A stretch of DNA of 64,000 nt. It comes from a virus. This document shows, one piece after another, positions 28,400 through 29,216 of the stretch; position 1 is the first letter of the stretch; each line of letters opens with the position of its first letter. The DNA lies in the IMG/VR virus record IMGVR_UViG_3300044782_000021, positions 1-64,000 of that record; one strand, 5' to 3'. The notes under the pieces are model-generated. The model was not told the origin of the DNA. It did no database searches and saw only the letters and a program-made list of their open reading frames with translations. The position numbers and the translations under genes are program-made.

Positions 28400-28428
28400 T
28401 TGACACGTCAGGTGTCGTCGGGTAGCGT
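28400..28428 (+). promoter_or_regulatory. sigma-A-type promoter, conserved family, driving the ORF-free RNA locus
   Basis: -35 TTGACA 28400-28405; spacer GACAC-N6-GTGTC; -10 TAGCGT 28423-28428. Confidence 0.6.
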
Positions 28429-28531
28429 AGTCCTCGCAAGGCAGCACGGAGCACGACGGCAACGACTCGCTTCACCTTCGGGTGATATGCGGCCAGCCGG
28501 CAAGGCAAGTGATCCGGGTCGACACGGATCA

Positions 28532-28666
28532 TGTCCGGCGCATCTGGTGACCAACGACCACGCACCCGAAAGGCCATCCCTCGGAGGCTCTCCCCGTACG
28601 AACGCAGGGCATCCCACCGAGGCATCCCAGGGGTCGTTGAGCAGGGTTCGATTCCCTGACGGACAG
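28532..28666 (+). ncRNA. tRNA-like module 1 (135 nt, no D stem, 72-nt insert)
   Basis: T arm CAGGG-TTCGATT-CCCTG 28642-28658. The following ACGGACA pairs 6/7 with TGTCCGG 28532-28538. Helix CGACC 28555-59 / GGTCG 28632-36 encloses a branched 72-nt insert with CGTACG (28595-28600) near its apex. Confidence 0.35.
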
Positions 28667-28707
28667 CGAAATACGGTACGGGGCTCGTAACCCACGACCG
28701 GGCAACA

Positions 28708-28796
28708 GATCGTATCGAGGGAGCTGGGCCTTACTCGGCGGACCACGAATCCGCCGTACGGGAACGGGGCGTGGGGTTCGATTCCCCGCACGATCG
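28708..28796 (+). tRNA. non-canonical tRNA-like module 2 (89 nt; ACG in a CCACGAA loop; long extra arm)
   Basis: Acceptor GATCGTA/CACGATC 6/7 bp; T8; T arm TGGGG-TTCGATT-CCCCG 28772-28788. A 7-bp stem CGGCGGA/TCCGCCG carries loop CCACGAA (C at position 33). A 15-17 nt extra arm carries CGTACG. The D region is oversized. Confidence 0.4.
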
Positions 28797-28865
28797 CGAT
28801 CGAGCGCACGCAGATCACGTGCGGTTGGTAAGTTGGGTCTGGCCGTTCGATTCGGTCTGGTGAAC
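28797..28865 (+). ncRNA. tRNA-like module 3 (T arm without local acceptor partner)
   Basis: Stem-loop CGCACG-CAGATCA-CGTGCG 28805-28823, then 17 nt, then T arm GGCCG-TTCGATT-CGGTC 28841-28857. It lies only 69 nt after the previous T arm. The 3' strand TGGTGAA has no 5' partner within 100 nt. Confidence 0.25.
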
Positions 28866-28878
28866 AGATCCAGCGATA

Positions 28879-28940
28879 GGGGTACGAGTACGCGACCGCT
28901 ATCCAGTCGACCATTCGACGAGGTCAGAGCGTGGTACCCC
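28879..28940 (+). ncRNA. 62-nt irregular rod-like hairpin preceding the interrupted tRNA
   Basis: GGGGTAC 28879-85 pairs with GTACCCC 28934-40; inner helices TACGC/GCGTG and GACC/GGTC; apical GTCGA-CCAT-TCGAC; two GTACG copies. Confidence 0.3.
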
Positions 28941-28944
28941 GCAC

Positions 28945-29061
28945 GCGCCGCTAGCTCAACGGATAGAGCGCACCCCGACACCAGAGCCGCCGAGATCGTA
29001 CGTATCGACGGCTGCAACTGCCCGAAGGGTGGAGATCCCCGTTCAAATCGGGGGCGGCGCA
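28945..29061 (+). tRNA. tRNA body with a 51-nt segment in place of the 7-nt anticodon loop (anticodon not assignable)
   Basis: Acceptor GCGCCGC/GCGGCGC 7/7; T8 A9; D arm GCTC-AACGGATA-GAGC; anticodon stem CACCC/GGGTG; variable GAGAT (A15-T48 compatible); T arm CCCCG-TTCAAAT-CGGGG; discriminator A. Positions 28976-29026 form an imperfect hairpin with CGTACG at the apex. Confidence 0.6.
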
Positions 29062-29067
29062 CGCAAC

Positions 29068-29111
29068 GCAAGGCCATTCGAATCCCGAAAACCAGCCGCC
29101 CCACGCCTTGC
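29068..29111 (+). repeat. large-loop hairpin with CCCGA box (dispersed family member)
   Basis: Arms GCAAGGC 29068-74 and GCCTTGC 29105-11; 30-nt loop CATTCGAATCCCGAAAACCAGCCGCCCCAC. Confidence 0.45.
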
Positions 29112-29216
29112 CGAGATGACCGCACGGAAAGACGAGCCGGAGCCGCGCCGGGCGGCAGCGACAAGTAGCGGGCCTGCCCGCACCCGGCGCCTCCCCCGAC
29201 CCGAAAGGCGCTGCCC

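What the first reader, a model, noticed from the sequence alone, without database searches (positions are those of the whole stretch)
28400..29216. Promoter-driven ~0.8 kb ORF-free locus built from tRNA-like modules with oversized anticodon-side arms and recurrent CGUACG
Genes elsewhere abut or overlap, but 28400-29216 has no credible ORF (only P/R/G-rich shadow frames) and is preceded by a full consensus promoter (28400-28428). It carries four GTTCRANNC T arms (28642-58, 28772-88, 28841-57, 29037-53). None gives an ordinary 72-90 nt cloverleaf with a 7-nt anticodon loop.
- Module 1 (28532-28666) has a 6/7 acceptor, no D stem and a 72-nt insert.
- Module 2 (28708-28796) has a 7-bp stem with loop CCACGAA (C33) plus a 15-17 nt extra arm.
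- Module 3 has its T arm only 69 nt after module 2's, with no local acceptor partner.
- Module 4 is a perfect tRNA body with a 51-nt loop.
GTACG occurs 6 times between 28596 and 29002, against roughly one expected by my rough composition estimate. It sits at or near predicted apical loops, and the same CGTACG fills the anticodon loop of the lone tRNA at 5812. Possible roles: tRNA-Arg(ACG)-type replacements or decoys against anticodon nucleases, or a multimerising ornate RNA, since palindromic apical hexamers can form kissing loops. All folding was done by eye.
Basis: partly seen in the sequence, partly recalled or inferred. Interest (0 to 1): 0.85.

Follow-up and report, generated by a model that had tools for sequence, protein, structure and literature searches.

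The report
Phage array of non-decoding tRNA look-alikes
A soil actinophage carries a promoter-driven, protein-free stretch of four genes that keep the upper half of a tRNA but have a wrecked or enlarged anticodon arm, and its relatives carry similar arrays at the same site, so these look like selected tRNA mimics rather than working tRNAs or junk.

Summary
Window 28430-29216 has no coding periodicity. It follows a promoter of a five-copy phage promoter family. It holds 4 of the window's 6 strict T arms, against 0.9 expected by chance. ARAGORN and Rfam call no tRNA there.

The locus is the conserved tRNA-cassette site of an uncultured actinophage clade: Prok-JAB gene, then array, then a ~190-aa protein, TerS and TerL. 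Across nine genomes the site holds 36 strict T arms, all on the + strand (1.84/kb against 0.02/kb elsewhere). Only 2 pass Rfam's tRNA threshold.

Module 4 is a tRNA-Arg body with 44 extra nucleotides in its anticodon loop. Modules 1 and 2 keep near-identical acceptor and T-arm ends in the closest relative although synonymous sites are nearly saturated, while their interiors differ. Module 3 is an orphan T arm.

The GTACG enrichment is real (5.5-fold) but marginal, and it is absent from the closest relative.

Best reading: tRNA-derived, non-decoding RNAs, probably processed like tRNAs, that act as tRNA mimics or scaffolds. The function is inferred. They are not members of tRNA-Sec, tmRNA, YrlA, GOLLD/ROOL or allo-tRNA. 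I rate this a new variant of a known kind.

The parts
28400..28428 (+). Promoter: -35 TTGACA (28400-28405), 17-nt spacer holding the inverted repeat GACACGTCAGGTGTC, -10 TAGCGT (28423-28428).
   Evidence: Five copies of TTGACA-N17-TAGNNT in the window, all on the + strand, against 0.01 expected. The same promoter heads the array in L005, L006-8 and L013.
28435..28510 (+). Leader, with the GCAAGGCA motif and a UUCG-tetraloop hairpin (UCACC-UUCG-GGUGA, 28472-28485).
   Evidence: Sequence and fold. 28457-28500 matches L005 3398-3438 at 84%, where the hairpin reads UCCC-UUU-GGGA. AAGGCA and AGGCAA are enriched 6-fold in the arrays of 7 relatives.
28511..28530 (+). Hairpin P0 (GAUCCG-GGUCGACA-CGGAUC), 2 nt upstream of module 1.
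   Evidence: Alignment A1: the loop is identical in L005 and the stem changes GAUCCG/CGGAUC to GAUUCG/CGAAUC, a compensatory change.
28532..28666 (+). Module 1: 6/7-bp acceptor (UGUCCGG / ACGGACA), conserved GCAUCUGGUGACC in place of a D arm, a ~90-nt variable long arm, T arm 28642-28658, discriminator G.
   Evidence: In A1 both ends are nearly identical to L005 3052-3160 while the interior is unalignable. 4-fold synonymous sites between the two phages are 56% identical against 42% by chance.
28708..28796 (+). Module 2: 88-nt class-II-like tRNA shape. It has a 6/7 acceptor, U8, a D arm, a 7-bp anticodon-like stem with loop CCACGAA (28743-28749, C33), a 17-nt extra arm and T arm 28772-28788.
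   Evidence: Rfam tRNA-Sec scores 25.7 bits against a gathering score of 47. In A2 the acceptor, the 5' flank GGGCAAC, CGGGAACGGG and the T stem are conserved in L005 3838-3930; the anticodon-like loop is not, and the L005 T loop is AUCGACA.
28805..28857 (+). Module 3: a 6-bp hairpin with a 7-nt loop (CGCACG-CAGAUCA-CGUGCG, 28805-28823), then T arm 28841-28857. It has no acceptor partner and no D arm.
   Evidence: The only acceptor candidate overlaps module 2's T arm. No orthologue was found.
28875..28903 (+). Hairpin GAUAG / CUAUC with a 19-nt loop that carries two GUACG.
28945..29061 (+). Module 4: a tRNA-Arg-derived body. It has a 7/7 acceptor (GCGCCGC / GCGGCGC), U8, D arm GCUC-AACGGAUA-GAGC, anticodon stem CACCC / GGGUG enclosing 51 nt (28976-29026: a long hairpin with apical loop CGUACGU), variable GAGAU, T arm 29037-29053 and A73.
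   Evidence: The unconstrained MFE is a cloverleaf with an extended anticodon arm, z = -2.41. The D arm matches only tRNA-Arg annotations. After deleting 44 nt, ARAGORN calls a 74-nt tRNA, Arg for 5 of 8 junctions. The orthologue L011 3787-3893 keeps the D arm but has acceptor GGGAAGG/CCTTCCC, different at four positions and still 7/7 paired.
29068..29111 (+). Hairpin GCAAGGC / GCCUUGC with a 30-nt loop that contains a stemless UUCGAAUCC.
29134..29191 (+). Conserved G+C-rich stem element at the 3' end of the array.
   Evidence: 86% identical to L005 4393-4450. In L005 it lies after the 52-aa gene and directly before a further T-arm module (4453-4538), not before the gene. Fold.
29217..29375 (+). 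Downstream 52-aa hydrophobic protein gene. No promoter-family copy lies between the array and it.
   Evidence: coding periodicity; homologues in L005 4061-4219 and L011.

Best explanation
The locus is a transcribed array of four tRNA-derived genes. It sits at the site where this uncultured actinophage clade keeps its tRNA cassette.

Each module keeps the part of a tRNA that the maturation machinery reads: the acceptor stem stacked on a canonical T arm. Modules 2 and 4 also keep U8 and a D arm. The anticodon arm is replaced, lengthened or interrupted, so the products cannot decode.

Proposed mechanism (inferred):
1. The host RNA polymerase starts at the 28400 promoter.
2. RNase P and RNase Z cut each module out, and the CCA-adding enzyme finishes it. 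No module encodes CCA.
3. The result is stable L-shaped RNAs of about 88-135 nt.
4. The conserved tRNA chassis gives processing, stability and entry to tRNA-binding proteins. The fast-evolving anticodon-side arm is the variable bait or cargo.
5. The most likely use is tRNA mimicry: soaking up or misdirecting host factors that bind or attack tRNAs.

Shown here: the anatomy, the conservation and the failure to qualify as decoding tRNAs. Inferred: processing, stability and the decoy role.
For: Non-coding and promoter-driven. The same promoter heads the array in relatives.

T arms are concentrated and strand-specific:
- 4 of the window's 6 strict T arms lie within 412 nt; shuffles average 0.89.
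- Across nine genomes there are 36 strict T arms in the syntenic gap, all on the + strand: 1.84/kb, 0 on the - strand, about 0.02/kb elsewhere.
- Only 2 of the 36 pass Rfam's tRNA threshold.
- The enriched 6-mers in the gaps are T-loop and D-loop words.

Purifying selection acts on the chassis only:
- Window against L005: 4-fold sites are 56% identical against 42% by chance.
- Yet the P0 loop, acceptor strands, GCAUCUGGUGACC and T arm of module 1 are nearly identical, the interior is unalignable, and the P0 stem has a compensatory change.
- Module 2 shows the same pattern.
- Module 4 and its L011 orthologue share the D arm, while the acceptor differs at four positions and stays 7/7 paired.

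The same pattern holds in the relatives' families:
- Family a (6 phages, 4-fold identity 0.52-0.69) has an invariant acceptor and T stem. Two of 3 D-stem pairs and 5 of 6 anticodon-stem pairs show changes on both sides, and 96.7% of cells are paired.
- Its anticodons differ: GCU, GCU, GAC, GCC, GCC, ACC.
- Family b orthologues have anticodon loops of 5 nt, GCGA and UCCAAAG, with covarying acceptors.

Module 4 is a tRNA-Arg body plus 44 nt.

The engineering precedent is the tRNA scaffold. As I recall the method, an RNA placed in the anticodon arm of a tRNA is processed and accumulates in E. coli; it was retrieved only as titles and abstracts (PMC3753655, PMC3401473).

Phage tRNAs are already implicated in countering tRNA-targeting defences (PMC10264068, PMC11555353).
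Against: - There are no expression, end-mapping or CCA data.
- Module 3 lacks an acceptor and has no orthologue, so part of the array may be debris.
- Only one orthologue each exists for modules 1, 2 and 4.
- No tRNA-related enzyme or partner protein was found among the 30 window ORFs scanned against Pfam.
- A stoichiometric decoy against an enzyme is a weak strategy unless the RNA is very abundant or binds tightly.
- Thermodynamic support is weak except for module 4.
Confidence: 0.5

Rival explanations
1. Processing punctuation or 5'-UTR scaffolds. The tRNA-like modules exist only as RNase P/RNase Z cleavage signals and stabilisers. They shape the ends of the co-transcribed small-protein mRNAs, as t-elements do in plant mitochondria or mascRNA does at the MALAT1 3' end. 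On this reading they have no role as free RNAs.
For: The array runs straight into the 52-aa gene at 29217 with no promoter-family copy in between. In L005, small ORFs of 63, 34 and 52 aa are interspersed with modules. Only the top half of the tRNA is conserved, which as I recall is what RNase P and RNase Z need. Precedent by title and abstract only: PMC1920247.
Against: L006, L012 and L027 carry 2.0-2.7 kb of modules with no or almost no called ORF between them to punctuate. D arms, and well-formed anticodon stems that covary, are maintained in families a and b. A bare cleavage signal would not need these.
Confidence: 0.15
2. Decaying tRNA pseudogenes. On this reading the array is the wreck of an ordinary phage tRNA cluster, kept only by chance.
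For: Module 3 is an orphan T arm. Module 4 looks like a tRNA-Arg broken by a 44-nt insertion. Module number and order differ between relatives. One relative, L027, still has canonical tRNA-Phe and tRNA-Met at the same site.
Against: Synonymous sites between the phages are near saturation, yet acceptor and T arms are intact in 36 modules and nearly identical between orthologues. Stems change by compensatory substitutions. Decay would hit T arms and acceptors as often as anticodon arms.
Confidence: 0.15
3. Real decoding tRNAs in disguise. Module 2 would be a tRNA-Arg(ACG) with C33 that resists an anticodon nuclease. Module 4 would be a tRNA-Arg whose 44-nt insert is removed by an unknown splicing route.
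For: Module 2 has a 7-nt loop, C-C-ACG-A-A. Module 4 becomes an ARAGORN-callable tRNA-Arg once 44 nt are removed. Family a in the relatives has regular loops with U33 and A37. Phage tRNAs with mutated anticodon loops are proposed to evade anticodon nucleases (PMC10264068).
Against: No module reaches the tRNA or tRNA-Sec threshold. Module 2's loop lacks U33, and the loop and its ACG are not conserved in L005. The 44-nt insert is far shorter than the group I introns I know of, no intron family matched at E<=10, and the predicted fold shows no bulge-helix-bulge. As far as I know, bacteria have no enzyme for such splicing. Orthologous modules carry anticodons for different amino acids on one body, or loops of 4-5 nt. 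No RNA ligase or endonuclease was found among the ORFs scanned.
Confidence: 0.1
4. One large ornate RNA of about 0.8 kb, in the style of GOLLD or ROOL, whose tRNA-like domains fold together and multimerise through palindromic CGUACG loops.
For: The locus is a long non-coding phage region with several T loops and GNRA or UUCG hairpins. CGUACG is self-complementary and lies in or near several predicted loops.
Against: The region matches no Rfam family other than the sub-threshold tRNA-Sec hit and weak hits scored as chance at E<=10. The whole-region fold has z = -1.56. Modules are reshuffled between relatives, and ORFs interrupt them in L005. GTACG is absent from the L005 locus and is not clade-enriched.
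Confidence: 0.05

Closest known systems
Phage tRNA gene clusters, including phage tRNAs with altered anticodon loops proposed or shown to counter tRNA-targeting defences (PMC10264068, PMC11555353)
   Same: Same genomic logic: a promoter-driven, same-strand cluster of tRNA-shaped genes in a phage. One relative (L027) still has canonical tRNA-Phe and tRNA-Met at this site. The fast-changing part is the anticodon stem-loop.
   Different: The window's modules do not qualify as tRNAs. Their anticodon arms are replaced by long hairpins or lack U33, rather than carrying point changes that keep decoding.
Irregular tRNA polycistrons and allo-tRNAs with 8/4 or 9/3 acceptor/T branches (Mukai et al., PMC5389517)
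   Same: tRNA-shaped genes from soil metagenomes and phages that standard tools miss. One body type carries many different anticodons, and a role as regulatory non-coding RNAs has been suggested.
   Different: Allo-tRNAs are defined by a 12-bp branch split 8/4 or 9/3. As I recall they also have a long variable arm and serine identity. Here T stems are 5 (or 6) bp and acceptors 6-7 bp. Most modules have no 7-nt anticodon loop.
Bacterial Y RNAs of the YrlA type (Chen et al. 2014, PMC4201824)
   Same: Non-decoding RNAs that mimic the T arm, D arm and acceptor of tRNA. They are recognised by tRNA enzymes, and M. smegmatis YrlA is cut by RNase P and CCA-tailed. They are found in actinobacteria and phages. 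One clade member (L024) encodes a TROVE/Ro60 protein.
   Different: YrlA is permuted (T arm, closed acceptor-like hairpin, D arm) and its ends form a Ro60-binding stem. The modules here are in normal tRNA order with open acceptor ends. The window has no TROVE gene. No Rfam Y-RNA or YrlA match appeared in the window locus at E<=10, or beside the L024 TROVE gene at E<=1.
Engineered tRNA scaffolds (PMC3753655, PMC3401473)
   Same: As I recall the method (only titles and abstracts were retrieved), foreign RNA hairpins are grafted into the anticodon arm of an otherwise intact tRNA, which bacteria then process and keep stable. That is exactly the architecture of module 4.
   Different: The scaffolds are artificial. 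No natural phage counterpart is known to me.
Phage T4 stable RNAs C and D (species 1 and 2) in its tRNA cluster; plant mitochondrial t-elements (PMC1920247); mascRNA
   Same: tRNA-like, non-decoding elements that are co-transcribed with tRNAs or mRNAs and cut by tRNA-processing enzymes. The T4 case and mascRNA rest on my own recollection, not on a tool result.
   Different: There is no sequence relationship. The mascRNA model gives only 15-bit T-arm matches. Those elements are single, not arrays with variable anticodon-side arms.

Membership tests
Canonical tRNA (Rfam RF00005; ARAGORN) | The whole cloverleaf scores at or above the family threshold (29 bits) or is called by ARAGORN. | tested here: not met
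   There is no tRNA hit in 28300-29300 even at E<=10. The gathering search and ARAGORN find only 5812-5884.
Canonical tRNA (Rfam RF00005; ARAGORN) | A 7-nt anticodon loop with U33 on a 5-bp stem. | tested here: not met
   Module 1 has none. Module 2 has CCACGAA (C33). Module 3 has CAGAUCA on a hairpin without a tRNA body. Module 4 has a 51-nt loop.
Canonical tRNA (Rfam RF00005; ARAGORN) | A T arm (5-bp stem, loop TTCRANN) stacked on a 7-bp acceptor stem. | tested here: met
   There are four strict T arms. The acceptor is 7/7 in module 4 and 6/7 in modules 1 and 2; module 3 has none.
tRNA-Sec (RF01852) | Score at or above 47 bits, the extended acceptor/T branch of tRNA-Sec, and a UCA anticodon (the last two from my own knowledge). 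| tested here: not met
   Module 2 scores 25.7 bits. Its loop is CCACGAA and its acceptor is 6/7.
Intron-containing tRNA (group I or bulge-helix-bulge) | A recognisable group I intron, or a bulge-helix-bulge motif at the exon-intron junctions. | tested here: not met
   No intron family matches at E<=10, and the 44-nt insert is far shorter than the group I introns I know of. The predicted fold has a 6x6-nt internal loop and no bulge-helix-bulge. ARAGORN's intron mode gives arbitrary calls, such as Ser(cga) with a 29-nt intron and a 305-nt 'intron' for module 1.
tmRNA | A tRNA-like domain plus a tag reading frame. | tested here: not met
   ARAGORN finds no tmRNA, and there is no Rfam match.
YrlA / bacterial Y RNA | Permuted order (T arm, acceptor-like hairpin, D arm) inside a terminal stem, encoded next to Ro60/TROVE. 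| tested here: not met
   The modules are in tRNA order. There is no TROVE gene in the window and no Rfam match. The definition is taken from PMC4201824.
GOLLD / ROOL large ornate RNAs | A match to the family covariance model, and a single conserved multi-domain fold. | tested here: not met
   Neither model matches at E<=10. Module order is not conserved between relatives.
allo-tRNA (8/4 or 9/3) | An acceptor of 8 or 9 bp with a T stem of 4 or 3 bp (PMC5389517); a long variable arm, from my own recollection. | tested here: not met
   T stems are 5 bp and acceptors 6-7 bp. Only module 2 has a long extra arm.
tRNA-like processing elements (t-elements, mascRNA) and tRNA mimics in general | Cleavage by RNase P and RNase Z and CCA addition in vivo. 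| not testable with these tools
   This needs end mapping. Only the substrate features are shown: acceptor plus T arm, with no encoded CCA.

The most novel reading that the evidence does not exclude
This actinophage clade may encode a previously undescribed class of 'tRNA-chassis' RNAs. In this class a tRNA body is held constant by selection, while the anticodon arm is a hypervariable, often enlarged bait or cargo.

The RNAs would be made in arrays and matured by the host tRNA pathway. They would serve as exchangeable decoys against tRNA-binding or tRNA-cleaving immunity, or as natural tRNA scaffolds for small functional hairpins.

A narrower version concerns Arg. CGUACG contains both the Arg codon CGU and its anticodon ACG. 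Loops carrying it could therefore mimic the anticodon loop of tRNA-Arg(ACG), or kiss with it.
Probability: 0.27. Interest if true: 0.85.

Novelty: new variant of a known kind. Interest (0 to 1): 0.65.

Why it matters
Phage tRNAs are now seen as weapons against defences that destroy host tRNAs. This locus points to a step beyond replacement tRNAs: RNAs that keep only the shape the cell's tRNA machinery recognises and vary the rest.

If they are expressed and processed, three things follow:
- Annotation pipelines miss a whole layer of phage non-coding genes. Here 34 of 36 T-arm modules in nine genomes do not pass Rfam's tRNA model.
- Nature would already use the 'tRNA scaffold' trick that RNA engineers invented.
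- There would be a tractable test system for which host factors read the tRNA body rather than the anticodon.

If they are inert, they still give a clear example of how phage tRNA clusters break down.

Tried and rejected
- Protein-coding reading: rejected. There is no frame periodicity and the shadow ORFs have no Pfam or PHROG hit.
- 'RNase E' (phrog_645) for the downstream 192-aa protein. The sequence is a basic, helical, DNA-binding-looking protein conserved next to TerS, and I did not treat it as an RNA enzyme.
- Homologues of the region in cultured phages: none by blastn. The nearest cultured phages, Streptomyces phages KimJongPhill and Zuko, share only about 70% nucleotide identity over 180 nt of TerL and have a different layout.
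- IMG/VR searches gave nothing useful. These used the flanking proteins, TerL, the promoter pattern, the module-1 block and the family-a block.
- The metagenome scan with the promoter pattern returned an identical contig (L016) and chance hits only.
- The GTDB genome scan with the module-1 block returned six chance hits and no homologue.
- Relatives were finally reached through TerL homologues and their contigs.
- Ro60 / Y RNA lead: relative L024 encodes TROVE. The window does not, the modules are not permuted as YrlA is, and no YrlA was found beside the L024 gene.
- tRNA or RNA-repair enzymes in the window: none among the 30 ORFs scanned against Pfam. Only Prok-JAB, Prim-Pol, an AAA_25 helicase and a zinc-binding domain were recognised.
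- GTACG as a clade motif: rejected.
- A custom tRNA covariance model was started (alignment A5) and dropped. The family-a sequences align poorly with canonical tRNAs, and the Rfam result already answers the question.
- Whole-region folding is uninformative at this G+C content.
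Full report

Yes. Frame-specific G+C contrast drops to 0.04-0.22 between 28500 and 29150. It is 0.3-0.58 in the genes on either side. The long shadow ORFs on both strands hit nothing in Pfam or PHROGs.

The promoter at 28400-28428 (TTGACA, 17 nt, TAGCGT) belongs to a family. TTGACA-N17-TAGNNT occurs five times in the window, always on the + strand, against 0.01 expected. Each copy has a GACAC..GTGWC inverted repeat in the spacer. The generic sigma-70 scan misses it because its -10 is TAGCGT.

Strict T arms (5-bp stem, loop TTCRANN) occur six times in the 64 kb. Four lie at 28642, 28772, 28841 and 29037, one lies in the tRNA at 5812-5884, and one is probably chance. Shuffles average 0.89.

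ARAGORN and Rfam call nothing in the region. The best sub-threshold match is tRNA-Sec at 25.7 bits, against a gathering score of 47, on module 2.

GTACG occurs six times in 787 nt against 1.375/kb overall, the densest bin in the window. After correcting for the number of windows the probability is only about 0.07.

A 1329-nt metagenome contig is identical to window 28192-29520.

**2. What the window is, and the relatives**

The window is a 65% G+C tailed-phage genome. It encodes Prim-Pol, a helicase, TerL, an SPP1-type portal and a 1766-aa tape-measure-sized ORF. It has no close cultured relative.

TerL homologues from metagenome assemblies gave genomic loci for eight further distinct relatives, with TerL 61-90% identical to the window's or to each other's.

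All loci that reach far enough upstream share the same order: a Prok-JAB gene, a gene-poor gap of up to 2.7 kb, a ~190-aa protein, an HTH/TerS-like gene, then TerL. L024, which instead carries TROVE and kinase genes upstream of TerL, is the exception. The same promoter heads the gap in L005, L006-8 and L013.

Across the nine genomes the gaps hold 36 strict T arms. All are on the + strand: 1.84/kb, none on the - strand, and about 0.02/kb elsewhere. L010's gap has none, so the 36 lie in eight of the nine.

Nearly all have an acceptor partner 69-180 nt upstream. Only two, tRNA-Phe and tRNA-Met in L027, pass Rfam's tRNA threshold. The words most enriched in the gaps are T-loop and D-loop words.

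So the finding is one instance of a clade-wide feature. This is the clade's tRNA-cassette site, and it is filled mostly with tRNA look-alikes.

**3. Anatomy in the window**

After the promoter comes a leader with a UUCG hairpin (28472-28485). Hairpin P0 follows at 28511-28530.

- **Module 1 (28532-28666).** It has a 6/7 acceptor and a conserved GCAUCUGGUGACC where a D arm would be. A ~90-nt arm replaces the anticodon arm, and the T arm is canonical.
- **Module 2 (28708-28796).** It is an 88-nt class-II-like shape. It has U8, a D arm, a 7-bp stem with loop CCACGAA (C33) and a 17-nt extra arm.
- **Module 3.** It is a 6-bp hairpin with a 7-nt loop, followed by a T arm (28805-28857), with no acceptor.
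- **Module 4 (28945-29061).** It folds unaided into a cloverleaf whose anticodon stem encloses 51 nt (z = -2.41).

Module 4 has a 7/7 acceptor, U8 and the D arm GCUC-AACGGAUA-GAGC. It also has a 5-nt variable loop, a canonical T arm and A73. I read its A14, A15:U48, G18G19 and A21 directly from the sequence.

Its D-arm segment matches only phage tRNAs annotated tRNA-Arg, in 11 of 11 annotated hits, though the E-values are weak. Removing any 44 nt of the loop in silico makes default ARAGORN call a 74-nt tRNA, which is tRNA-Arg (CCG or ACG) for five of eight junctions. Module 4 is therefore a tRNA-Arg body with a 44-nt hairpin in its anticodon loop.

Further hairpins and a conserved element (29134-29191) fill the rest. 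The array runs into a 52-aa hydrophobic protein gene at 29217.

**4. Selection**

Between the window and its closest relative L005, 4-fold synonymous sites in the portal gene are 56% identical against 42% by chance. That is near saturation.

Against that background three things stand out for module 1:
- The P0 loop, both acceptor strands, the GCAUCUGGUGACC block and the T arm are almost identical.
- The interior cannot be aligned.
- The P0 stem changes by a compensatory pair.

Module 2 keeps its acceptor, a CGGGAACGGG block and its T stem in L005. Its anticodon-like stem-loop is different there, so the ACG is not conserved.

Module 4 and L011 3787-3893 share the D arm. Their acceptors differ at four positions (GCGCCGC/GCGGCGC against GGGAAGG/CCTTCCC) and both stay 7/7 paired.

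The relatives' own families show the same rule more clearly. Family a (six phages) has an invariant acceptor and T stem. It shows changes on both sides in 2 of 3 D-stem pairs and 5 of 6 anticodon-stem pairs, with 96.7% of cells paired. Its 3' 27 nt are 96% identical, while TerL 4-fold sites among those phages are 52-69% identical.

Family a's anticodons read GCU, GCU, GAC, GCC, GCC and ACC. ARAGORN names the orthologues Ser, Ser, Val, Pro, '???' and Gly.

Family b orthologues have anticodon loops of 5 nt, GCGA and UCCAAAG on covarying acceptors.

The chassis is under purifying selection. The anticodon arm is free, or driven, to change.

**5. What it is not**

- Not a tRNA, tRNA-Sec or tmRNA by the standard models.
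- Not an intron-bearing tRNA of a known kind. No intron family matches at E<=10, and the insert is far shorter than the group I introns I know of. The predicted fold has no bulge-helix-bulge, and ARAGORN's intron mode gives arbitrary answers.
- Not YrlA. That family is permuted and sits beside Ro60 (PMC4201824). The window has no TROVE gene.
- Not GOLLD or ROOL. Module order is not conserved, and in L005 small ORFs sit between modules.
- Not allo-tRNA, which is defined by 8/4 or 9/3 branches (PMC5389517).

**6. How it most likely works**

Shown: a promoter-headed, non-coding, same-strand array of tRNA-derived modules. The acceptor/T-arm half is conserved and the anticodon half is not, and most modules cannot decode.

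Inferred, from what is known of tRNA maturation: the acceptor/T-arm minihelix and elbow are the features read by RNase P, RNase Z and the CCA-adding enzyme. The modules should therefore be excised and CCA-tailed into stable L-shaped RNAs. None encodes CCA, and most are followed by N-C-G.

The design matches engineered tRNA scaffolds (PMC3753655, PMC3401473). As I recall that method, cargo in the anticodon arm is processed and protected.

I think the likeliest use is mimicry of tRNA towards host factors that bind or attack tRNAs. Phage tRNAs are already linked to evading such defences (PMC10264068, PMC11555353). This functional step is a hypothesis.

I give the whole statement 0.5. The descriptive core alone would be about 0.8.

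**7. Rivals**

- Processing punctuation for the co-transcribed small ORFs: 0.15.
- Decaying pseudogenes: 0.15.
- Disguised decoding tRNAs: 0.1.
- One ornate multimerising RNA: 0.05.

**8. The GTACG question**

The enrichment is real in this phage, and four of the six copies lie in predicted loops. The apical loop of module 4 (CGUACGU) resembles the loop GGUACGU of an unrelated module family in L006 and L012. The phage's own tRNA-Arg has the loop GUACGCG.

CGUACG contains both the CGU codon and the ACG anticodon, so loop-loop pairing with tRNA-Arg(ACG) is conceivable.

Against this, the motif is absent from the 1.8-kb locus of the closest relative and is not enriched across the clade. I treat it as a lead only.

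**9. Novelty and verdict**

The ingredients are known: phage tRNA clusters, tRNA mimics, irregular tRNAs. The combination I have not seen described, and my literature searches did not find it. That combination is arrays of selected tRNA chassis with hypervariable or enlarged anticodon arms, at a fixed site in a phage clade, invisible to standard annotation.

I rate it a new variant of a known kind, with interest 0.65.

Noticed in passing
window 6281-6309, 28400-28428, 37937-37965, 45508-45536, 63950-63978: A five-copy, + strand promoter family, TTGACAC..GTGWC..TAGNNT, with a palindromic spacer that looks like an operator. It heads both the RNA array and regions holding structural genes.
   Followed up: partly
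window 5812-5884: The only callable tRNA, Arg(ACG), is itself odd. Its anticodon loop is GUACGCG, with C at position 37 and G32/G38. Its anticodon stem has 4 bp plus a C.A mismatch. It scores 43.5 bits against the Rfam model.
   Followed up: partly
L024 1-1395 and 4612-5817: A clade member with 66% TerL identity encodes a TROVE/Ro60 protein and a Zeta_toxin/AAA_33 kinase-like protein upstream of TerL. No YrlA-type RNA was found beside the TROVE gene by Rfam at E<=1, and the window has no TROVE gene.
   Followed up: partly
L005 7001-9838; L011 7001-9820: The TerL genes of two relatives are about 940 aa instead of about 570 aa. They carry a LAGLIDADG-type hit, which suggests an intein inserted in the terminase.
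   Followed up: no
window 27536-28000, and the equivalent gene in every relative that reaches far enough upstream: A Prok-JAB (MPN) domain gene always lies just upstream of the RNA array. In the window a 154-aa membrane-like protein sits between the two. The reason for the linkage is unknown.
   Followed up: no
window 29427-29465 and 29477-29563 (- strand): A 10-bp G+C-rich hairpin (GAGGCCCCGG...CCGGGGCCUC) lies after the 52-aa gene and looks like a terminator. Facing it on the - strand is a 28-aa hydrophobic ORF (MSTSTVVALATALVLAGWLLLVNGWFSR), read directly from the sequence.
   Followed up: no
window 29134-29191 versus L005 4393-4450: An 86%-identical structured element sits before the 52-aa gene in the window. 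In L005 it sits after that gene, directly upstream of a T-arm module. This shows local rearrangement of RNA elements around a conserved small gene.
   Followed up: partly
L006 4071-4170; L012 5043-5135: A module family whose terminal helix can extend to about 10 bp (CUGGUUCCCG/CGGGAACCAG in L006). It has a 5-bp hairpin with loop GGUACGU and a GNRA-capped extra arm. Its shape recalls the closed terminal stems of Y RNAs.
   Followed up: no
3' flanks of modules in the window and all relatives: The base after the acceptor stem is very often followed by CG (GCGA, GCGA, ACGC, ACGA, GCGT and so on) and never by CCA. This may be a trailer or processing signal.
   Followed up: no
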